Source of the DNA: Podarcis vaucheri
Lineage: Eukaryota
Reading direction: 5' to 3' (one strand)
Assembly (NCBI GenBank): GCA_965113315.1
Contig: OZ220382.1
Length of the DNA stretch: 64,000 nucleotides
A program made the position numbers and the translations under genes. Positions within the stretch are counted from its first letter, which is position 1. The number at the start of each line of letters is the position of its first letter. Below, piece after piece: positions 14,880 to 44,660 of the stretch. The notes beneath the pieces were generated by a model that was given only the letters and a program-made list of their open reading frames with translations, made no database searches and was not told where the DNA came from.

Positions 14880-15138
14880 GGCACGAGTGGCGCTGTGGTC
14901 TAAACCACAGAGCCTAGCATGTCAAAGTGCAAGTAGATAAATAGGTACCACTCTGGCGGGAAGGTAAATGGCGTTTCTGTGTGCTGCTCTGGTTCACCAG
15001 AAGCAGCTTAGTCATGCTGGCCACATGACCTGGAAGCTGTACGCCGGATCCCTCGGCCAATAAAGCGACATGAGCACCGCAACCCCAGAGTCGTCTGTGA
15101 CTGGACCTAATGGTCAGGGGTCCGTTTACCTTTTACCT
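14880..15138 (+). mobile_element. Sauria SINE with internal deletion
   Basis: GTGGCGCTGTGG head, AAGTAGATAAATAGGTACC core, TTTACC tail; lacks the B-box region present in 44147-44492. Confidence 0.9.
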
Positions 15139-15276
15139 ATAATTGTAGAGTTGGAAAGGACCACAAGGGTCATCTAGTCCAATCCCATGTAATGCAGGAA
15201 TATTTCACCCAAACATGGGCTCAAACCCATGACGCTGAGATTAAGAGTCTCATGCTCTACTGACTGAGCTGTCCCA
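15139..15276 (-). mobile_element. tRNA-Lys(CTT)-derived SINE with CR1 3' tail
   Basis: Minus strand AGCTCAGTCAGTAGAGCATGAGACTCTTAATCTCAG..GGGTTTGAGCCC (tRNA-Lys-like) followed by GGACTAGATGACC..TTCCAACTCTAC. Confidence 0.8.
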
Positions 15277-17454: not shown

Positions 17455-18275
17455 TTTGCAGTGAGGCCAAGGTCACTGGGGCAGGGGCACATGAAGAAAT
17501 AAAATGACATGACAACATGTCGGGATCAAAATGGCTCAACTTTTATTGATTACAGATGTCAGTAGGCTTTGGCATAGGCAATTGGTATGTATCCTGAGTC
17601 AACCACCCCGATTGCAGGCTAATTACTTCACTAGGGTCAATCCTGAATTAAGAATCCCCATAAGATGCACATCAAATATGGGCAACCCCTCCAGGATAGC
17701 AGTAGGGGGGTTCCATGGCCTGTTAGCCCCTGTCTGGGCATTCAGATAGAACCCTTCCCTTTGGATCCCTTTACTGGGGTACCCTGATACTTTGATCAGG
17801 AAGAGAGGGTCATAGCTCCGTCCCACCCCCTCTGTTTAGACTAAGGATTCAACTCAATGTTTTTTCCCAAGTTGCTGTGAGCTAAGCAAACCCCTCCAAA
17901 CTAGCCCAATCCTCCCAGGACCCAAATACAGCAGCCAAGTAACTTCACAGCAAAGTCATGCACATGTGTTGCCTGCTTAACATCCGGCAGGGCCAAACTT
18001 TCGGGGTGGGCAGGTAGAACATCTGTTGCTGACTGTACTGCTGAAGACAAGGGCAGCCAGTTTAAATGGGCTGGAGATGGACCTGAGTAAAGCCAGGTAC
18101 AGGTAGGCTTCAAGCAGGTCTACCCTAAAAGGACCACCCCCTAAATTGGCTATCATTGGCCCATTTAAATTTAAATTGAACTAGAGCCTCAAAACTCCAC
18201 ATTGTCAGCCAAGTCTAATGACAATGCCAGCCAGTCACATAGGGAGTTTTTCAGGCCTCCCCCCGCCACTTGCCA
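17455..18275 (-). mobile_element. Divergent ~0.8 kb structured non-coding element (copy E1), putative DIRS/Ngaro-like derivative
   Basis: Shares motif order with 28708-29654 and 40045-40845: CAACTTTTATTGATTACAG, TAGGCAATTGG, GGATCCCTTTACTGGGGT hairpin, GAGGGT/ACCCCCTC hairpin, AAGTTG, GGGTGGGC; boundaries approximate. Confidence 0.55.
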
Positions 18276-18558
18276 GCAGTTGCAGCAGCAGCCGTCACCG
18301 CAAAGATGGTGAGTGGTCTTTTTCTTAGATAAATAGAACACGCGTGTGTGCATCTGTTTGTCCTCTCTCTCAAGCTTGTTTTATTCAGATTTCTACAGAA
18401 AGGAAAGAAACCCAAACTAAGCAATGGAAACTGAAACCCAATAGCTCCCAAATACACAAAACTACCATATAAACTTAAAATAAGCTGTACTTCCACCTAG
18501 AATAGTAAGAATGGTGCATTAACAACAATTTTCGAGGTAGACTTATACGGAAAAATCC

Positions 18559-19004: not shown

Positions 19005-19369
19005 GGGACGCGGGTGGCGCTGTGGGCTAAAGCCTCAACGCCTAGGGCTTGCCGATCGAAAGGTCGGCGGTTCGAATCCCCGCGGCGGGGTGCGCTCCCG
19101 CTGTTCGGTCCCAGCGCCTGCCCACCTAGCAGTTCGAAAGCACCCCCGGGTGCAAGTAGATAAATAGGTACCGCTTACCAGCGGGAAGGTAAACGGCGTT
19201 CCGTGTGCGGCTCTGGCTCGCCAGAGCAGCGATGTCACGCTGGCCACGTGACCCGGAAGTGTCCCCGGACAGCGCTGGCCCCCGGCCAATAAATGTGAGA
19301 TGGGCGCACAAACCCCACAGTCTGTCAAGACTGGCCCGTTCGGGCAGGGGTACCTTTACCTTTACCTTT
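19005..19369 (+). mobile_element. Full-length, young Sauria SINE (divergent subfamily)
   Basis: A box TGGCGCTGTGG, B box GGTTCGAATCC, (TTTACC)3 tail, perfect TSD AATACCTATGAT, CpGs retained. Confidence 0.95.
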
Positions 19370-21659
19370 AATACCTATGATGGAAAATGTTACTGTTTTT
19401 CAAAATAACAGCTCTCTTCTGACACCCCTAACAGGAAATATGCTTCCAATGACTTGCTTTTTAGATCACAATAATGTGGTGTTAAAACCATGACTTCCCT
19501 GAAAGGTCAGTTTCACTTAACAGCAAATTTACTCATTACTGAAGTTCTGCAGGGCACTTGATTGTTAACAGAACGACACCTGTGTAGAATATTGCGAGCC
19601 ATGCCACACAAAGAACAGTATAAAACCATGGACCAAAAGTATTTATGTGAGCCAGAAATGAACCCATATGGCTGATATTTTGAGAGTCATCATCTAAAGT
19701 TTCCCTTCGATTTCACCATAAATGGCTCCCTTCTTCTTCATCATACATACTGCCTGACATTTATCTCAAACCCTTCCACATAGCTAAAGTACATGTTATT
19801 TACTGTTATCAGAAACAAAATGTAGGATCTGCAGTACACGTTACCATGTAATTACCATTGCCTGAAGCACGTTGCCATGCACTTTCCTGGGGAAATGATG
19901 TGTTATTTTCACAGTAACTATGTAATTAGGAATTTTCTCTCTATACCTACAGCAGGAACACAGCTTTGAGATTTAACAAAGATTGTTACTTAGAACAACT
20001 CTGTTCTGTATTGATAGGGATGCCATATCAACACTATTATGAGAATAAGATAAAGTTCTGAAATCCTGTGAAGTTAACACAGAAACTATTATCCTTTGTC
20101 AAAATTGGAGTGTATATTCAATTGAATTGTTTTTAATGAGAAGCACAACTGGAGAAAGTAATTGTTAGTAATTGTTACACATAAGCACCACTACTTCTAT
20201 ATTTCCTCCTTTATCAAGCTCTTTGCACGCCTGTAACCAGAGCTCTGTGTGTGTTTATGTGTGTAATAATGTGAGAACACACAGTGTGACCTGGAAGTAT
20301 TTGTGTTCATCAGAACATCTGAATACAGGGATTTCTGCCTCACAGTTCCTCTGGAACTTCTGTAATAATTGCAGGGATTATTGCACCTTCAGCATACAGG
20401 GCATGGTCTTCTTTCAAGGTTTTTAGATCTGGTGGTGGGACTCACCTGAATACCTCTCCTTCTGGGGACTCAGGAGCATTATGTAAACTACAAAAATCAT
20501 AAATTGCCAAATGCTAACCTCATGCCACTTAAGTAGTAAGAATTCTAAAGTGTCTGACAAAAGATAAGAAAACTATTGGTGCTGTGTCTTTGTAACAAAG
20601 TTGATTGCAGATTGGTGAGTCTTTGTAAGATGGCAAAGTGAAAAGAAGAAGAGACTGTAAGGACAGTGATGCAGGTGAAAGCTGACACGCAGGAAAGAGA
20701 AATCTATGTTTCTGTCATGATAGCTTTGATGGAGTGTGTTCGTGATGAAACAGTAAAATCAAATGAAAAAGAAATTCAAGATAAAATGTGCCTGATTAAA
20801 GCTGTGCTCAGTTCTAATACTGCCTTGTAAACTGTTTCTTCCTCCTCCCCATGCAACATAACCTATAGGGAGTACTTTTAAAATGGTAGGACCACTTATG
20901 CTCTCACTTATTCTCACAAGACCTTGCTGTACAATTCGATGCATCTTCCTCAGAGAAATAAAGATAAGAAAGAGCAGCTCACGTGCCTCTCCAGAAGTGT
21001 GTCGCTAGAGCAACTGCATCTGCTTCTGTCCTTTTCATTTTTGTTCAGTAGATGCAATTGTTTAAGGATAAGTCTCAGATACAGCAGGGTGAACTTCTGC
21101 ACTCAGATGCTCTGAGGATAATTTATGCATGCATCCTGCAAAAGAAGACCCTTGAAGCCCATAATTTAAAGCACATCCAAATTATGTGCCATAATTTAAA
21201 GCACATCCAAAATAATTCTGGGAACTGTAGCTCACACCCACACACCCTAGAGTTTGCAGCACCCTTAACTCCATTTCCCTGGATTATTTGGGGGAGAGAG
21301 CATGCTTTAAATATGCTTTAATAGAAAGCTGATTAACACCACCAAAATTTTGACTCATCTAGCTCAATAATGTCTACACCAACTTTCCCAAACGTAGTGC
21401 CTTCCAGATTCTAACTCCCATAAGTCCCATTCATCACTAGCCAATAGTTAAGAACAGGCTCGTAGGGGGCTGGGGGCAGCTGGGTACACTTGCTGTGGGC
21501 CTTGGAAGACTAAGGCAGCCAAGGGGCCCACCAGGAGTCTGCTGGACTTGCACTGTCATGCCAAGAACAAGATTCCTGTCCTGGGCCTCAGACAAGCTCT
21601 ACATGGGCCTGGCTAAGAATGATGAAAGTTGGCATTCAAAACAGCTGGAGAACCACAGG

Positions 21660-21790: not shown

Positions 21791-23252
21791 TTTATCTCAA
21801 TGAAGGTGGCAGTCTTCAAATGAGGACCAATCAGCAGGAAAGTACAGGAAGAGCAAGTTATCCTCACAAGGTATGGTATCTCACAACAAGGGGATCAGGA
21901 CCCCCCCCCTATTTAAAGTCTCTATCCAATGTGATGTAAAATTAGTCAGCTGTTACCATTTCTAGCCCCAAAATGAAGGTATTTCTGGAGTTTTCTGGCG
22001 TTCTGAGTCAACCAGATAACAATGGTGTGTTTGTGCATGTGTGTGTGAATGTTTGTGCATGTGAATGAGACTAGGACATACTATACCTAAATATTTTGCT
22101 CATTTTTAGAGCCATCTGCCATTTTCTGCTTAAATATTTACAGTATTTAGGTTCATTGCGATATTTCTTCTTCCCATGAATGCCTGTTGACCTTCAGGTG
22201 TGAAGATTAGTAATATGGAATGCATCATATCACTATCCAGCTCATCTAGAGAGTTTCTCAAGAGCATCTGGTTGGTCACTGTCAATATAAAAGATGCTAC
22301 ACTTATGTGGACACTTGACTGGACCCAGCTGTACAGCTCCCATGTGATAAAAAGGATACCAGTTCATGAAAAGCATCAACACTAGTCATATCCTGGGGAA
22401 AACAATTTAGCTGAACAACACACCTCTCTCATAACAAGCCTAGACAACTTAATAGCTGCAATTGCCAAGCAAAATGACTCAGGTAGCTACTTTTCTAAAA
22501 TAATAATAATAACAAATCCACACTTCATCATTAGAAAAAGGTGTTAAATCCAAGTCAACTAGCATTAATGTCACTGTGACATCTTTGCTTCCTCTCAACC
22601 AATAAGAAGCTGTCTGCTGCATACTAATTAATTATTCATTGAAAAACAATTACATGTGGATTCAGAATAGAAGCCAAAGTAACAGGTACCAAAATGAATT
22701 TCCAGTGCATTTCAGGGTACTTTAGACAACTGAGCCATATGCATCTCAAGTTTGCACCATAATAGTTTGGTCTTTACTTAAGCACCTGTAAGAAACCCAT
22801 GCATTCCTAGTCAAAAATACATCCCACTGAGTTCAATAATACTTACTCCCAAGTAAGTGCATGTAGGATTGAAACCTATGTTGCATGCCACTCTGGCCTA
22901 GCCAGCCCCCTAGATCAGTAAATGAACCCCAGAAATAAGCTGACAGGACCTTTGAAGTCCTAACAAAAGGGGTTCCAAAGGGAAGTATTACCTGATGTCA
23001 CTACGGCATCAGGTGATTGTTGGGTGCAGAAGGGAAGTGGAAGGAGCTATGGGGACTGGCTGGGGGTAGGAGGAGCTGGGGGAATGTCAGGGGGGGCAAG
23101 GTGTAAAGGGTGGGGTTGTTGGGATAGCAGGTAGGGGTTTAGCAAGCAAGTGGTAGGTGGAGTCGACAAGCAATACTAGTGGGGGGGGGTAGGCCCTAGT
23201 AATACATTTAAAAACCCGTGACTGCAAATCTAAACCCAGTTTTCTGGGAATA

Positions 23253-23512
23253 AAAAGGTAAAGGACCCCTGGATGGTTAAGTCCAGTCAAAGGTGACTAT
23301 GGGATTACAGCGCTCATCTTGCTTTCTGGCTGAGGGAGCCGTCCACAGACAGCTTTCTGGGTCATGTGGTCAGCATGACTAAACTGCTTCTGGTGCAACG
23401 TGACACTGTGACAGAAGCCAGAGCTCACGGAAACGCCATTTACCTTCCCACCACAGAGGTACCTATTTATCTACTTGCACTGACGTGCTTTCAAACTGCT
23501 AGGTTGGCAGGA
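23253..23512 (-). mobile_element. Sauria SINE, 5'-truncated
   Basis: AAAGGTAAAGG tail; GGTACCTATTTATCTACTTGCAC core. Confidence 0.85.
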
Positions 23513-23553
23513 GTAATCCCCATTGCACCCAATTGGACTTACTTTTGAGTCAA

Positions 23554-25743: not shown

Positions 25744-26125
25744 AAAGGTAAAGGTAAGGTAAAGGACCCCTGGACAGTTAAGTCCCATCAAAGGTGACTA
25801 TGGGGTGTGGCGCTCATCTCACTTTTCAGGCCAAGGGAGCCAGCATTTGTCTGCAGACAGCTTTCCGGGTCATGTGGTTAGCATAACTAACCTGGCACGC
25901 GGAGGACAGTGACGAGTGCCAGAGTGCATGGAAACACCATTTACCTTCCCTCTGCAGTGGTACTTATTTATGTACTTGCACTGGTGTGTTTTCAAGCTGC
26001 TGGGTTGACAGAAGCTGGGACAGAGCAACAGGAGCTCACGCCATTCTGCAGATTTGAACTGCCAACCTTCCGATCGGCAAGCCCAAGATGCTCAGTGGTT
26101 TAGACCACAGCGCTACCCATGTCCC
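25744..26125 (-). mobile_element. Sauria SINE, full length, older copy
   Basis: Tail AAAGGTAAAGGT; head CCACAGCGCTACCCATGTCCC; flanking repeat ATCATTCATAATA. Confidence 0.9.
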
Positions 26126-28052: not shown

Positions 28053-28707
28053 CTCATGCATGGCAACTATGAGAACGAGACACTGGACTAGATAGGCCAA
28101 TGGCCTGATGATCCATCAGGTTCTTCTCATATTCTTATGTTCTTGATCAGAAATATATATTTCTGTTCTGGTTCTCCAAGATGCAAAGCCATTTCATTTT
28201 CCACCTACCATTTTGTGTAACACACCAAATCATGGTAGGGATACATGTTTATTGGCCCTTAGATAGCAAGACATTATTGAATTGTGTCCATTGCAAGCAA
28301 AAAATAAATTTAAAAAAATCCAGCACACAGTTCTATTCTTTCAAGTGGTACTTGCATGAACACATGGGTAAAAAGCAGATTCATGTGTGCACATATGTAG
28401 ACATGTAAGCAAATCTAGTACTGTGTGAGGGGAGAAAGGATATCAGAAACACAGAAGAAAATGATTCGCAGAATGAATCAGAGAAAGAGAAGGGCATAGC
28501 AGAAAGACACAGAGAGAAAAGGGGTGGTCACTTGTTACTCTGATGCCTCCCACCATTGGCCTTCTCAAGTTACCTCCAAAAGGGTGTGGCACTTGACGGG
28601 GAGGTTGCTCTAAAATAGTTGGCTGAGTGGTACTGCATCTGCTTTGCATGCAAAAAATCCCAGGTTAAATCCATGGCATCTCCAGATGGAGCTGGGGGAG
28701 AATCTTG

Positions 28708-29654
28708 TTGTGATTCGAGGACCCGTCCCCTTAGCTTGGGATAAGAAAGACACATGGACACAGTATTTTAGGTTTTTGGGCTAAAAAAAGGCCACAACTT
28801 TATTGATTACAGCATGTAAGAGGTATTGGCTTAGGCATTGGAATAACAGCAACATTGACTCCACCCACTCAGTGAGGGGTGAGTCTAGCAGGGGTTAATC
28901 ACCAGTAGGGGGAGCCTGTTGACAGTGGCGTAGCATGGGGGGTGCAGGGGGGCAGGCCGCACCGGGCGCAACATCTGGGGGTTAGGGTTAGGGGGCGCAA
29001 ATCCACAGGTTAGGGGGCGCAAATTACTTGCCTTGCCCCAGGTGCTGACAACCCACGCTACGCCACTGCCTGTTGATGCAAATACAACTGTAAGCTCTCC
29101 CCTGATGTCAACGGGGTAATGCCATGGCCACCAGCCCAGCTGGGCATCGGACATTATCCATGACCGCCGGATTCCTTTAACGGAATACCCATAAAAGAAG
29201 GGGTAGATGATGGCCACACCCTACCCTTCCATACACCAACCACACGTTCCAATGCCTAACTGCCAATACCAAAAAGTTGTGATGAATTGCTACGAGGTAG
29301 GCAAAAAACCAAGTGGCCGGTGCCAATTTGCCAAATGGAAAAAACTCCTACCAGGCCCCCTAGGCAACCAGGGCAACCAACCATAGGTCCACAGCAAGGT
29401 CAGGCGCAAAAGGAATGACTAGAGGGAGGGTGGGTGGGTGACCCAATGAAGAACCCGGCAGCGCAATGAGGAACGGGGCTGCTGCGGCCGCGTTTAAGCG
29501 GCTAAACCCCGCCCCCATGCCTGCTGCTGATAGGCAGGATTAATGGGGGTGTGGCGCGTCAGTGATGTCGTAGAGCAGGGGCTGGAACGCCCCCTGCTCC
29601 GCGCGGGAACAGTTCCCGATCACAATGCCTCCCCTCCGTGAGGAGGAGAGGATT
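28708..29654 (-). mobile_element. ~0.8 kb structured non-coding element (copy E2), putative DIRS/Ngaro-like derivative, no TSD
   Basis: Cleanly interrupts the SINE with no visible duplication; minus strand has a CpG-rich promoter-like end, CACCCACCCACCCTCCC, and AATAAAGTTGTGGCC near its 3' end. Confidence 0.65.
28923..29068. mobile_element. hAT MITE (146 bp)
   Basis: TIR CAGTGGCGTAGC/GCTACGCCACTG; perfect 8-bp TSD CCTGTTGA at 28915-28922 and 29069-29076. Confidence 0.95.
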
Positions 29655-29696
29655 TCTGAAACATTGGAGAGCTGCTGCAAGTCAGTTTTGACAATA

Positions 29697-29926
29697 CAGT
29701 GGTGCCCCGCAAGACGAAATTAATTCGTTCCGCAATTTTTGCCGTCTAGCGAATTTTTCTTCTTGCGAAGCACGGTTTAAACGGTTTAACAAACTCGCGG
29801 GACGTTTTCGTCTTGCGAAGCAAGCCCATAGGGGAATTCATCTTGCGAGGCAAATCGCGAATGAAAAAACCTTTCGTCTAGCGAGTTTTTTGTCTTGCGA
29901 GGCATTCGTCTTGCGGGGCACCACTG
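29697..29926. mobile_element. Tc1/mariner-pogo MITE, young
   Basis: Perfect 22-bp TIR CAGTGGTGCCCCGCAAGACGAA; TA TSD on both sides; internal TCTTGCGA repeats. Confidence 0.95.
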
Positions 29927-31262
29927 TACTGAGTTCAATAAACAAATGGTCTAGCTCAGTATAAGTCAGCTTTCTATGCTGTACATTGCTATGCTTCAGA
30001 AGGATTGCTGAGGCATTTTTCTTTTCTTTTTTTTTTACAGGAACTGATTGCAGCCCCCTTTTTAACCCAGAAGGGGTTAAGGGGAAAAAACAAACTTTTT
30101 TTTGAGAGGGAAGAATTACTGTTGTGTGTTGCAAAAACAAGATCACCCACAAGGGACAAAAAGGCATTTGTATTATTAACAGTTAAATGCATCATGGTTT
30201 CTGTTTAAGTACAATTTTGATGAATTGGTTCTAAAAATAGTATTGATCTGAGTAATCAATCTTACACCTTTTGTCAAAAGGGAACCCCCGCCCCCACACC
30301 AAAACTACAATATTGATTACCTGCATCTGTACTATACCCAAGAAAGAAAGGAAAAAGCATTTCTAGGCAACCCGGGCTTTGCTACCACTGAAATCTAAGG
30401 CAATATTAAGGGGGGAGGACCCTCTTTATTTCACTCACATTTGCCACTAATTCTTCATCTCTAAGAAATGGTCAAGCTCAGTGAGGCTCGGACAAGCAAT
30501 TTTCCTAACCACCCAAGTTAACACAGCACACAACAATGACTTAAAAAGCAAATTACATTTCTAAATGCTCACCTGCAAAATATAGGTTAAGGGCACCTTG
30601 CCATTTGCTGCAAAAGAACAAAATATGTTGTGAATCTCTATGTTCTGAAAAAGCGAAAACAAACAAGAAACTGCAGAGTGGATACTTGATTGCTTCCAAC
30701 TGATTTGTGCACACTGAAAAGAGCAGATCAGCCTTCCTCAACCTGACAGCCTCCCTATATTTTGGACTACAAGTCCCATTATCCCTGATCATTGGCCATG
30801 TTGGATAGGGAGAGGTAGTCTGAAACACCTGGAGGGGAAGACTGGTGCAGGGATAGCATATTCTTTTTCCTCTTGTAGGAACATAAAAAGCTGCCTTTTG
30901 CCAAACTGAACCGCTAGTGCATCTATAGTCCAACAAGTCAAGCATCCTGTTTCCAACAATGACTAGCCAGATCTTTTGTGAAGCCCACAAGGAAGAACAA
31001 AAGGCAAGGGCCCTCTGCCAATGTTTCTCTGCAAACAGTATTGAAAGGTACAACTGAGGCATGCAATAACAAGTTGCATTCTGCCCACACTTCCTAGTAG
31101 TTATGCTCTATTCAAGGTTCCTTACAGTAAGCCATCTCCTCCTCTGAGAAGCTATCAGCTATAAAGAGCTACAGCATTCTACCTTTCCTCCAATCTTCTT
31201 ATTTTCCTTTTACTGCTAACAGTTAAAGTGCCTTGGCCACCTGCCAGTGTGATGTGATGTGA

Positions 31263-36870: not shown

Positions 36871-37218
36871 GGTAAAGGTAAAGGGACCCCTGACCATTAG
36901 GTCCAGTCGTGACGGGCTCTGAGGTTGATGCACTCATCTTGCTTTATTGGCCGAGGGAGTCGGCGTACAGCTTCCGGGTCATGTGGCCAGCATGACTAAG
37001 CCACTTCTGGAGAAGCAGAGCAGCGCACAGAAACGCCATTTACCTTCCCGCTGGAGTGGTACCTATTTATCTACTTGCACTTTGATGTGCTTTTGAACTG
37101 CTGGGTTGGCAGGAGCAGGAACTGAGCAATGGGAGCTCACCCCATCGTGTGGATTTGAACCGCCAACCTTCTGATCGGCAAGCCCTAGGCTCTGTGGTTT
37201 AACCCACAGCGCCACCCA
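36871..37218 (-). mobile_element. Sauria SINE, near full length
   Basis: Collinear reverse complement of 44147-44492; ATGGCATG on both flanks. Confidence 0.92.
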
Positions 37219-38503: not shown

Positions 38504-39017
38504 GGGATGCGGGTGGCGCTGTGGGTTTTCACCCCATTCATTTCAATGCAAAAGAAATGTAATGAAAATTGTGGGAGGGGGACAAAATCAATTATATATC
38601 ATTTGCTGACTGAAAGCAAGCACAACAGTGAATGCAGATTGTATTGAATAGTAGGCTCATAGCGTGGGTGGCGCTGTGGTGTAAATCACAGAGGCTAGGG
38701 CTTGCCGATCAGAAGGTTGACGGTTCGAATCCCTGTGACAGGGTGAGCTCCCGTTGCTCGGTCCATGCTCCTGCCAACCTAGCAGTTCGAAAGCATGAAG
38801 TGCAAGTATATAAATAGGTACCGCTCCAGCGGGAAGGTAAACGGTGTTTCCGTGTGCTGCTTTGGTTCGCCAGAAGCAGCTTAGTCATGCTGGCCACATG
38901 ACCCAGAAGCTGTCTGCAGACAAACGTCAGCTCCCTCAGCCGGTAAAGCGAGATGAGCGCCGCAACCTCAGAGTCATCCGCGACTGCACCTAACGGTCAG
39001 GGGTCCCTTTACCTTTT
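38504..39017 (+). mobile_element. Chimeric Sauria SINE: short head, 134-bp insert, then near-complete SINE
   Basis: TSD TAACATCTT at 38495-38503 and 39018-39026 brackets the whole unit; insert matches 14746-14879. Confidence 0.9.
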
Positions 39018-40044
39018 TAACATCTTGGCTGCATTGTGACATACACCAGATGACTGCTGAAGCAGACACTTCCAGGCTTCCTTCGATGTCATACAGCACA
39101 CCTTTCAGCAGTGGCAAAGTTTTATTAGCTCCAAAGTTCTTAAGAAAAGGCTGACTTAAGAATCCTCTTGGCTTGTAAATGGAAATCAGTCAATGAACTC
39201 TCAAGGACAGCATGGTTTAACTCCACAGATACACTGCAAATTTAAAAAGAAAGGGGAGATATATTTGCTTGAGAGAAGACAGGTTAAAATATACATTTAC
39301 TTTTCTTTTCTTTTTGGCATGAGTTCCTTTGTCGAGAACTAGATGTGTTATCATAACCTAACAGAGTTTAATTCACTTAATTCACAAGAAAATATGAAAC
39401 ACTGAAATTAAGAGAAGGAAAGTGGGACACTGAGAGGAACCAAAATTGACAGATTCACCCATTGTTACTTGACTCACATTGTCACAGCCTCATCATCCCC
39501 CACAGTAGCCAGCTGACAGCAATAGCAGACCCAGAACACTAAGTTTTGTTTTCTATGCCTCATTTCAGGCACAACAGCATGCAAGGTGACTTTGCCCATT
39601 TGTGTGGCCCAGAAACAAGTGGGGGAGGCAGAGTTCCATCTCCCTGTCAGGGTCTCATGAGATTCTTTGAAGGATGGTCATCACCCTGCAGGAACTCACA
39701 AGAGGGAGGAGGGGCTGAGAAAGAGCTAAATGCTAAGTGACTCCCACAGAGGGGGCCAGGGTGCTTTCCAACCCTGACAGAGTGCCATTACATCAAGGCT
39801 GAGTGGAATGAGGAACTGATCCTTGCCCTATTGTCATGCCAACCCTGCTTGCCTGCTGAAGTCAATAACAATTTGACCCGATTTTCACCCAACACTGGTA
39901 TCCTGTTTTAGGGCACAACAATACTTCCTCTTGTTCCATTGCTTTCCCCCAGGGGAAACTACCCTTTGGCACTCAATCAGAGAAAAGAACAATTTGGGTT
40001 TTCTCCAGATTGATACTTGTTCTTGTTTGCGTGTTGAGTTCCAC

Positions 40045-40845
40045 AGTGCCACCCCCCAAATAATTACACACTTCACACATCAATTTTGTTTAAGGTTTTT
40101 GGCATAATTTTGGCCACAACTTTATTCAAAATACAAAAAATTGTGAGTGGTTGCTTAGGCATTGGTTATGACTATCTGTCCTGGCCCTCAAGGACAGGGC
40201 TGGCCCTTCCGGACTCCACCGGAAGCCAGCGTGGGAAACAAGTATTGGATAGAAGGGAGGCCGGGAAACAAGCCCTCACTTCTGACCCTCATGTTCCGGT
40301 GGGGCTTGCACAGCCCAAGTCCGGCTCCACGGACAAGGACAAAAGAATGGCAAGCCCCTGGATTCCTTTAACGGAATTCCCTTTCCGCATCATTTGGAGG
40401 GGTAGGCACTTACCCCTCCAAGCACCAATTAACCAATGCCTAACCGCCAACCTTACAAGTTGTGACGATTTGCTACGCAGTAGGCAAAAACCAAATGGCA
40501 CCAGCCAATCAGCCAGATGGCAAAATTCCTACCGTGCCCCCGCACCAAGGCGAACGACACCATGACAGGCATAGCAAGGTCAAGCGATCAGCTTAAATAA
40601 AAAACCCCCCTATTAAAGGGAGGGAGGGCGGGTGATCCGATGCAAAACGGCCAAGAGGACGTCCCTACATCTGGCCCTTCTATTTAAAGCTTCTGACTCC
40701 TCCTCCAAATTGGTAACAATCATATTCCCCCAGCAACCCGATTAACCCTAAAGGCCAGGGTTGCAGATTAATTTGCCTAGTCATGGCTGGGCGGCCTGTT
40801 CCCCAACCGCAACACGTGCTCTCTGTTAGGGAGAACACGCTTTAG
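40045..40845 (-). mobile_element. ~0.8 kb structured non-coding element (copy E3), putative DIRS/Ngaro-like derivative
   Basis: GGCCACAACTTTATT, TTAGGCATTGG, GGATTCCTTTAACGGAAT, CCAATGCCTAA, AAGTTGTGA, TTGCTACG..GTAGGCAAAAA, AGCAAGGTCA and GGGAGGG motifs in the same order as E2; boundaries approximate. Confidence 0.65.
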
Positions 40846-44146: not shown

Positions 44147-44492
44147 TGGATGTGGGTGGCGCTGCGGGTTAATCACAGAGCCTAGGACTTGCCAGAAGGT
44201 TGGCGGTTTGAATCCCCGCGATGGGCTGAGCTCCCGTTGCTCAGTCCCTGCTCCTGCCAACCTAGCAGTTCGAAAGCACGTCAAAGTGCAAGTAGATAAA
44301 TAGGTACCGCTCCGGCAGGAAGGTAAACGGCATTTCCGTGCGCTGCTCTGGTTCGCCAGAAGCGGCTTAGTCATGCTGGCCACATGACCCAGAAGCTGTA
44401 CGCCGGCTCCCTCGGCCAATAAAGCAAGATGAGCGTCGCAACCCCAGAGTCAGTCACGACTGGACCTAATGGTCAGGGGCTCCTTTATCTTT
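44147..44492 (+). mobile_element. Sauria SINE, full length
   Basis: Head, B-box-like GGTTTGAATCC, core and tail; degenerate TSD TAACTTTC/TAACTTAC. Confidence 0.93.
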
Positions 44493-44660
44493 TAACTTAC
44501 GGGAATGTATAAAAATGTGGCATGTGCAAACTACGCATCAACCCAACACACAGGTCTCCCTCTTCAACTCACTCATGTTGCACCAGGTCAGCCTATTATA
44601 TTAGCAAACCACTGTAAGATTATATCAGTAACCACCCCTGGGTGCACTAGCCATCCCAGT

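What the first reader, a model, noticed from the sequence alone, without database searches (positions are those of the whole stretch)
28708..29654. Family of ~0.8 kb non-coding mobile units with a large covarying fold that base-pairs next to the poly(A) signal
Seen in E2: long-range helices CACAACTTT(28793-28801)/AAAGTTGTG(29273-29281), GGTATTGGC/GCCAATACC, TTAGGCATTGGAA(28831-28843)/TTCCAATGCCTAA(29247-29259) and GGTTTTT/AAAAACC enclose several local hairpins. E3 has the same helices with compensatory changes (TTGGAA/TTCCAA becomes TTGGTTA/TAACCAA; GGTATTGGC/GCCAATACC becomes GGTTG/CAACC). On the minus strand the order is GC-rich promoter-like end, TTAAA, structured body, AATAAAGTTGTGGCC; the pairing overlaps the AATAAA in E2. 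All three copies share orientation and I see no conserved ORF. Established: tyrosine-recombinase retrotransposons (DIRS, Ngaro) integrate without TSDs and use terminal repeats to form circular intermediates. Inference: these are solo or non-autonomous units carrying a structured cis-element for replication or poly(A) control, which I do not recognise as described. Best candidate for a novel system in this window.
Basis: partly seen in the sequence, partly recalled or inferred. Interest (0 to 1): 0.7.

Follow-up and report, generated by a model that had tools for sequence, protein, structure and literature searches.

The report
Tail-handling fold in solo Ngaro ends
This is the leftover end-repeat of a Ngaro jumping gene, present in thousands of copies; its RNA is predicted to fold one way at the element's true end, where a U-rich loop likely shields the poly(A) tail, and another way at the internal copy, where the end of a gene likely hides the poly(A) signal.

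Summary
The helices are real, but the unit is not a new mobile family. E2 (28708-29654, minus strand, carrying a 146-bp MITE) is a solo A-U-B end block of Ngaro tyrosine-recombinase retrotransposons. Parents in this genome read A1-gag-RT-YR-SGNH hydrolase-B1-A2-U-B2, and E2's B lies beside YR/hydrolase genes at 82-84% identity. At least 2,568 U-bearing copies exist, and solos increase with divergence. Solo AB repeats are described (Cafeteria Ngaro; SIRE of VIPER). That U-tract belongs to an ENE-like U-rich loop (45 of 59 U segments, 10 of 2,950 shuffles). The best long-range covariation lies outside the solo: in B1 the last hydrolase codons pair with the same 3' arm, over the AAT of AATAAA in 9 of 15 elements. 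B1 and B2 are near-identical from the foot of the 11-bp core helix, a possible copying start. No function was shown, and RNA reads were uninformative. This scan had already noted the ENE-like loop, the B-start branch point and the junction hairpin on other DNA; I found no note or paper on the B1 helix.

The parts
28708..29654 (-). E2: solo A-U-B end block of a Ngaro retrotransposon (about 795 bp without the MITE)
   Evidence: 27 of 30 best genome hits share the left end and 26 of 30 the right end; flanks not shared
29439..29654 (-). A repeat (promoter side). Inner boundary inferred by analogy with families where A1/A2 were measured (211-231 bp)
   Evidence: an A1 piece 86% like 29603-29651 precedes YR/hydrolase remnants in L167
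29266..29438 (-). U spacer, found only between A2 and B2
28708..29265 (-). B repeat (includes the inserted MITE)
   Evidence: 82-84% to the repeat directly after the hydrolase ORF in L149/L166 and L150/L167
29296..29352 (-). ENE-like hairpin: 6-bp lower stem, two U6 tracts, 3-bp upper stem
29273..29281 (-). 5' arm of H3 (in U); pairs with 28793-28801, overlapping the end of the poly(A) signal
   Evidence: 98% of cells paired, no two-sided change
29262..29270 (-). 5' arm of H2; pairs with 28822-28830
29247..29259 (-). 5' arm of core helix H1; pairs with 28831-28843; B identity starts 2-9 nt upstream of it
28801..28830 (-). 3' arm that pairs with the last hydrolase codons when the repeat is B1; its partner is absent in this solo
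   Evidence: -34 to -40 kcal/mol against 6 of 6 coding relatives tested
28799..28804 (-). AATAAA poly(A) signal (use not shown)
   Evidence: sequence
29610..29654 (-). A-start half of the hairpin predicted at the B|A junction; other half 28708-28722
28923..29068 (.). Unrelated MITE, 17-nt terminal inverted repeats, 8-bp target duplication (hAT-type; label recalled)
   Evidence: not matched by the other 29 loci
28620..28707 (+). Left part of the host SINE into which E2 inserted; continues at 29655-29691 and 29932-29980 (Squam3-like; name recalled)
   Evidence: repeated elsewhere in the window
40026..40843 (-). E3: solo A-U-B of a young family (99-100% to many copies)
17470..18320 (-). E1: old, degraded member of a distant family; ends approximate; no ENE-like hit

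Best explanation
E2 is a solo A-U-B end block of a Ngaro retrotransposon, likely left when a full copy collapsed, and its conserved fold is predicted to be the element's RNA 3'-end handling device, folding differently in the two copies of B. Shown: full elements read A1-ORFs-B1-A2-U-B2. Inferred: the genomic RNA has to pass the poly(A) signal in B1 to carry the B1|A2 junction, and must end in B2. Predicted for B1: the last hydrolase codons zip onto the 3' arm and cover the first half of AAUAAA, which would favour read-through. Predicted for B2: U supplies other partners (H2, H3) that loop out about 400 nt and place the poly(A) site beside an ENE-like U-rich loop, which would bind the tail as a U-A-U triple helix and slow deadenylation. 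In the solo the fold is inherited cargo. Odds: identity about 0.95; collapse after insertion about 0.8; ENE clamp about 0.6; masking of the B1 signal about 0.45.
For: Architecture: 12 of 13 stretches chosen for a second E3 hit show A1, B1, A2-U-B2 in a 6.0-7.6 kb element, the 13th being cut by the fetch. 15 of 20 YR loci have B1/B2. Pfam finds RT, YR and a GDSL/SGNH-like domain, and YR motifs are conserved in 8 of 8. E2's B lies next to such genes at 82-84%. Collapse with age: among the 40 best hits to one family's A-U-B, an adjacent B1 was listed for 3 of 3 at 99-100% identity, 12 of 22 at 93-95% and 0 of 15 at 91-92%. B1 helix: cognate arms average -31.5 kcal/mol against -23.5 for all pairings of 15 elements (0 of 20,000 permutations as good; within-clade p=0.003). 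The sense strand pairs better than the antisense in 14 of 15, and 4 of 12 pairs changed on both sides. ENE-like loop: motif in 53 of 59 distinct U segments. A generic descriptor hits 45 of 59 sense, 0 of 59 antisense and 10 of 2,950 shuffles; 2 of its 3 minus-strand hits in the window are E2 and E3. Its outer pair runs G-C/G-U/A-U (17/2/2). ENE definition and function: passages in PMC7583470, PMC13541005, PMC12501189.
Against: No RNA end, structure probing or triple helix was observed. Averaged over all six letters, AAUAAA is not clearly less accessible in B1 than in B2 (lower in 10, tied in 1, higher in 6 of 17), because H3 covers its last letters in B2. The B1 helix covers AAT in only 9 of 15 elements and is short in the E3 clade. 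U versus 3' arm shows no overall cognate advantage (p=0.16), so H2/H3 rest on invariance. The SGNH match is below Pfam's cut-off and no RNase H profile hit. U-tracts shrink to 3-4 in part of the E3 clade and the loop is missing in the 2 E1-family copies. Covariation counts come from related sequences and a structure derived from them. U-bearing copies outnumber B1-context copies about 9 to 1 (2,568 vs 279), which collapse alone explains only if long copies are purged.
Confidence: 0.6

Rival explanations
1. H1 is a fold-back primer or start mark. Reverse transcription would begin at the U|B2 border, so B2 is re-copied from B1 each cycle, and the fold's main job is replication. This can hold alongside the best explanation.
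For: In 51 of 52 scored B1/B2 pairs, exact identity starts 2-9 nt upstream of H1's 5' arm (the exception, L080, has a deleted B1). 20 of 51 pairs are identical over 360-426 nt. No substitution is shared by siblings, except one pair of loci with the same flank; G-run length differences recur. 8 of 11 H1 pairs never vary in 18 B1 copies. The DIRS-1 primer is unknown and a 3' hairpin was proposed (passage, PMC7192593). Self-priming is described for some LTR elements (passage, PMC5006619).
Against: Selection for H1 in both copies plus branch migration at circle closure would pin the border at the same place. No cDNA end was seen. A cut in the RNA would be needed to free a 3' end.
Confidence: 0.3
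2. A-U-B units also insert directly as mini-circles (early circle closure during copying, or recombinase excision), so they are a SINE-like non-autonomous family.
For: About 9:1 excess of U-bearing over B1-context copies in the E2-side clades. All 30 E2-like loci fetched are solos. Independent mobility is left open for SIRE (passage, PMC6681497).
Against: In young families full copies dominate: 21 of 31 exact U-motif hits of the E3 family have a B1 or junction hit beside them (my pairing), and 3 of 3 at 99-100%. No B|A junction (tandem dimer) was found for E2's subfamily (0 hits). A solo's own RNA would lack the junction.
Confidence: 0.15
3. The pairing is a protein-binding or single-stranded DNA feature (packaging or recombination), with no role at the poly(A) site.
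For: The long helices are invariant rather than covarying. The B|A junction also folds, better on the sense strand in 12 of 12 elements.
Against: U-tracts and G-U-tolerant changes lie on the transcribed strand next to AAUAAA. The 3' arm tracks the hydrolase end across clades.
Confidence: 0.2
4. Ordinary solo LTR of an integrase retroelement.
For: Promoter-like end, AATAAA, about 0.8 kb, thousands of solo copies.
Against: Ends are AAA...CAA, not TG...CA. Flank letters are mixed beyond a shared AA, and no 4-6 bp duplication is visible. Parents encode YR and have split repeats.
Confidence: 0.01

Closest known systems
Ngaro retrotransposons, Xenopus DIRS-53_XT type (passages and part 1 of PMC9210276)
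   Same: A1..B1-A2-B2 split direct repeats; gag-like, RT, YR and SGNH hydrolase ORFs; no methyltransferase hit
   Different: A unique spacer U (about 170-180 bp) between A2 and B2, and B of 360-430 bp (152 bp in DIRS-53_XT); no RNA fold mentioned in the passages searched
Solo AB repeats of Cafeteria Ngaro (passages, PMC8547959); SIRE = A2+B2 of VIPER (passages, PMC6681497)
   Same: Isolated end block without ORFs, attributed to recombination between repeats
   Different: Vertebrate host, thousands of copies, conserved fold
Single-domain ENE of KSHV PAN RNA, and Evade/Copia93 ENE (passages, PMC7583470, PMC13541005, PMC12501189)
   Same: Stem-loop with U-rich internal loop flanked by G-C pairs, upstream of the poly(A) signal in a retroelement 3' region
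   Different: About 500 nt upstream in sequence and brought close only by long-range helices; no Rfam match; binding untested. [quoted passage not shown]
Retroviral choice between two identical poly(A) signals (passages, PMC3694450)
   Same: Same problem: an upstream copy must be suppressed
   Different: The passages read describe U1 snRNP/splice-donor control or weak sites; here the predicted masker is the coding end of the last ORF

Membership tests
Ngaro | Split direct repeats A1..B1-A2-B2 in parents | tested here: met
Ngaro | RT and tyrosine recombinase ORFs | tested here: met
   PF00078 and PF00589 over cut-off; YR motifs in 8 of 8
Ngaro | RNase H domain | tested here: inconclusive
   no Pfam RNase H hit in 3 pol ORFs scanned
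Ngaro | No methyltransferase (separates from DIRS1/PAT) | tested here: met
   none in 3 pol ORFs scanned, one of them partial
Ngaro | SGNH hydrolase ORF after YR | tested here: met
   PF13472 E=1e-4 to 2e-3 in 4 of 4, below the curated cut-off
Ngaro | RT phylogeny groups with Ngaro references | not tested
   no reference sequences on hand; the metagenome scan found no relatives
Solo LTR (integrase elements) | TG..CA ends with 4-6 bp target duplication | tested here: not met
   (by eye)
DIRS1-like | Inverted terminal repeats with internal complementary region | tested here: not met
   terminal repeats are direct
ENE | U-rich internal loop on both strands between stems, G-C pairs adjacent | tested here: met
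   45 of 59 vs 10 of 2,950 shuffles; 53 of 59 by motif
ENE | On the transcribed strand, upstream of the poly(A) tail | tested here: inconclusive
   strand agrees with ORFs and AATAAA (0 of 59 antisense); the RNA 3' end was not seen
ENE | Forms U-A-U triple helix and blocks deadenylation | not testable with these tools
   needs melting or reporter assay

The most novel reading that the evidence does not exclude
Vertebrate Ngaro elements use one repeat as a two-state RNA switch. At B1 the end of the hydrolase gene hides the poly(A) signal. At B2 the spacer clamps the tail in a triple helix, and the 11-bp core helix serves as the so far unknown primer for reverse transcription, which would explain why B starts exactly there.
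Probability: 0.2. Interest if true: 0.75.

Novelty: new variant of a known kind. Interest (0 to 1): 0.48.

Why it matters
How tyrosine-recombinase retrotransposons prime reverse transcription is unknown (PMC7192593), and how split-repeat elements choose between two identical poly(A) signals was not addressed in anything I read. The fold gives three specific, separately testable sites. An ENE in an animal YR retrotransposon would extend tail-clamping beyond the groups listed in the reviews read. The thousands of solos also scatter promoter-like ends and poly(A) signals through the genome.

Tried and rejected
RNA: no RNA holder was listed for E3. Four raw-read runs of a related organism, about 6-12% of each read, gave 60-103 reads per run on E3, mostly 90-95% alike, with no cluster of ends and no poly(A) loose end among those shown. 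On an A-ORFs-B copy, depth was near zero over the ORFs and low over B. Two reads crossed the B|A junction in one run. This is no evidence either way. Metagenome scan for distant Ngaro: 81 pattern hits, none confirmed, so generality beyond this genome is untested. Rfam: nothing on the units, so a known ribozyme is not supported; self-cleavage was not tested. A tRNA primer-binding site at the TGG that opens B was considered from recall only and not tested. Dfam/Repbase were not available, so the repeat may already be catalogued. PMC4864102 and PMC3430378 (the ENE surveys) are not held; they and their supplements could list DIRS/Ngaro ENEs. Nine literature searches listed no paper on a Ngaro terminal fold. 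Rows dropped: 10 loci fetched twice were skipped, 2 could not be anchored, and L080 is the outlier. In one search, four B1 windows (L113, L115, L123, L162) were anchored further upstream than intended.

Full report
Observation. The 13-bp pair is unusual (10 of 1,000 dinucleotide shuffles; 14 bp in E3, 1 of 1,000), while the 9-bp pairs alone are not (three or more in 143 of 1,000). The span includes a 146-bp MITE with an 8-bp target duplication. E2 sits inside a SINE that also carries a second MITE at 29692-29931. MITE-free relatives of the E2 and E3 U-B region fold better than shuffles (z=-2.5 and -3.4, 20 shuffles each).

What it is. The window lies in a 1.6-Gb genome; a lizard is suggested by a recalled SINE and by the scan's earlier notes. 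E2 has 4,430 first-look candidates. Of 30 loci fetched, 27 share the left end and 26 the right end, with unrelated flanks. For E3, 23 of the 40 best hits had a second partial hit directly adjacent. Fetching 13 of these showed, on the minus strand, A1 (212 bp), a degenerate internal part, B1 (424 bp), A2, a unique spacer U and B2; 12 of 13 show all parts. The internal part holds remnants of RT, YR and hydrolase. A Pfam search for YR gave 65 matches. Of 20 fetched, 15 have B1/B2 and 5 end after B1. Their ORFs match RT, YR and, weakly, a GDSL/SGNH hydrolase. E2's own B lies directly after such genes at 82-84%, and one of those loci also has an A1 piece 86% like E2's A end. This is the Ngaro layout as given in PMC9210276 (part 1 and passages read). 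Solo AB repeats are described in PMC8547959 and, as SIRE, in PMC6681497 (passages). On the sense strand elements begin AAA (59-63 of 67 left ends per position, mixed letters before) and end CAA followed by mixed letters (124 ends; CAA was required by the search). Only AA is shared with the target.

How solos arise. An exact U motif occurs 2,568 times and an exact B1-context motif 279 times (controls 2 and 11). In the young E3 family 21 of 31 U hits have a B1 or junction hit beside them and 10 do not (my pairing). For one family, an adjacent B1 was listed for 3 of 3 hits at 99-100%, 12 of 22 at 93-95% and 0 of 15 at 91-92%. No B|A junction was found for E2's subfamily. Collapse after insertion, by homologous or recombinase-driven exchange between A1 and A2, fits best; the two routes give the same sequence. 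The 9:1 excess leaves room for direct insertion.

The fold in B2 and solos. On 22 copies chosen across subfamilies, 61 pairs are 93.5% paired and 15 changed on both sides, against 6.7 in shuffles (0 of 500). Relatedness, and the structure's origin in the same alignment, inflate this. Eleven of the 15 are in local hairpins. The long helices are mostly invariant: H3 has 0 of 9 such pairs, H2 1 of 9, H1 2 of 13 (its inner extension). AAAAACC follows the signal in only 6 of 47 distinct copies. After a lead from an earlier scan note, I tested the U-tract as half of an ENE-like loop. The motif is in 53 of 59 distinct U segments. A generic descriptor hits 45 of 59 sense, 0 of 59 antisense and 10 of 2,950 shuffles; of 3 minus-strand hits in the 64-kb window, 2 are E2 and E3. 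The loop lies about 15 nt 5' of H3's arm, so H3 would hold the poly(A) site beside it (inference). ENE features and function come from passages of PMC7583470, PMC13541005 and PMC12501189.

The fold in B1. Where B follows the hydrolase gene, its last codons pair with the 3' arm that ends in the AAT of AATAAA. Across 15 elements, cognate arms average -31.5 kcal/mol against -23.5 for all pairings (0 of 20,000 permutations; within clades p=0.003), and the sense strand is better in 14 of 15. The same test on U gives p=0.16 overall and 0.025 within clades. On 18 B1 copies, 4 of 12 pairs of this helix changed on both sides. E2's own arm pairs with 6 of 6 coding relatives at -34 to -40 kcal/mol, although its partner is gone. 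Against masking: AAT is covered in 9 of 15 elements and the helix is short in the E3 clade. Whole-hexamer accessibility is lower in B1 in only 10 of 17 elements. Retroviruses face the same choice between two signals (passages, PMC3694450).

The border of B. In 51 of 52 scored pairs, B1/B2 identity begins 2-9 nt upstream of H1. 20 of 51 pairs are identical, and substitutions are private apart from one duplicated locus. So B appears to be homogenised along its whole length at each cycle (inference). Priming at the foot of H1 would explain this, but so would branch migration pinned by selection on H1. The DIRS-1 primer is unknown (introduction and passages, PMC7192593). The B1|A2 junction also folds, better on the sense strand in 12 of 12 elements.

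RNA reads gave no ends and are uninformative. Distant relatives could not be obtained.

Verdict. The unit is a known kind of object. The RNA architecture was not found in nine library searches, but the main ENE survey could not be read. Earlier notes of this scan already cover the ENE-like loop, the B-start branch point and the junction hairpin, and a word search found none on the B1 helix. New variant of a known kind; interest 0.48.

Noticed in passing
L097, L106, L108, L109, L112; L174-L177: Many copies end after B1 (A1-ORFs-B), the reciprocal collapse product; about 20 of 30 hydrolase loci have host flank after B1.
   Followed up: partly
G000:C41: This 41-Mb contig holds a large share of the hydrolase-bearing copies (14 of the top 30); it may be a non-recombining chromosome (guess).
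   Followed up: no
G000:C41:6596009-6599078 and C31:35505824-35507404: Miniature, internally deleted elements; the first reads A-hydrolase-B-A-hydrolase-B-A-U-B in tandem.
   Followed up: no
L071:450-7697: E3's parent is a young non-coding 7.2-kb family with several partial hydrolase duplicates and a minisatellite.
   Followed up: partly
L175:3841-6985: Two YR-like stretches in one element: a degenerate copy followed by a better one.
   Followed up: no
B1|A2 junction, e.g. L073, L123, L160; window 28708-28722 with 29610-29654: Hairpin with clade-matched changes between the end of B and the start of A; a possible folded recombination site.
   Followed up: partly
window 28620-29980: Nested insertions: a SINE holds E2 and a TA-flanked MITE (29692-29931); E2 holds another MITE.
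   Followed up: partly
window 39797-39905: Fragment like the B 3' end in the opposite orientation, just left of E3 (E=0.0013).
   Followed up: no
window 14916-15143, 19009-19375, 23251-23513, 25756-26121, 36874-37218, 38664-39017, 44152-44493: A separate repeat family of about 350 bp with at least 7 copies in the window.
   Followed up: no
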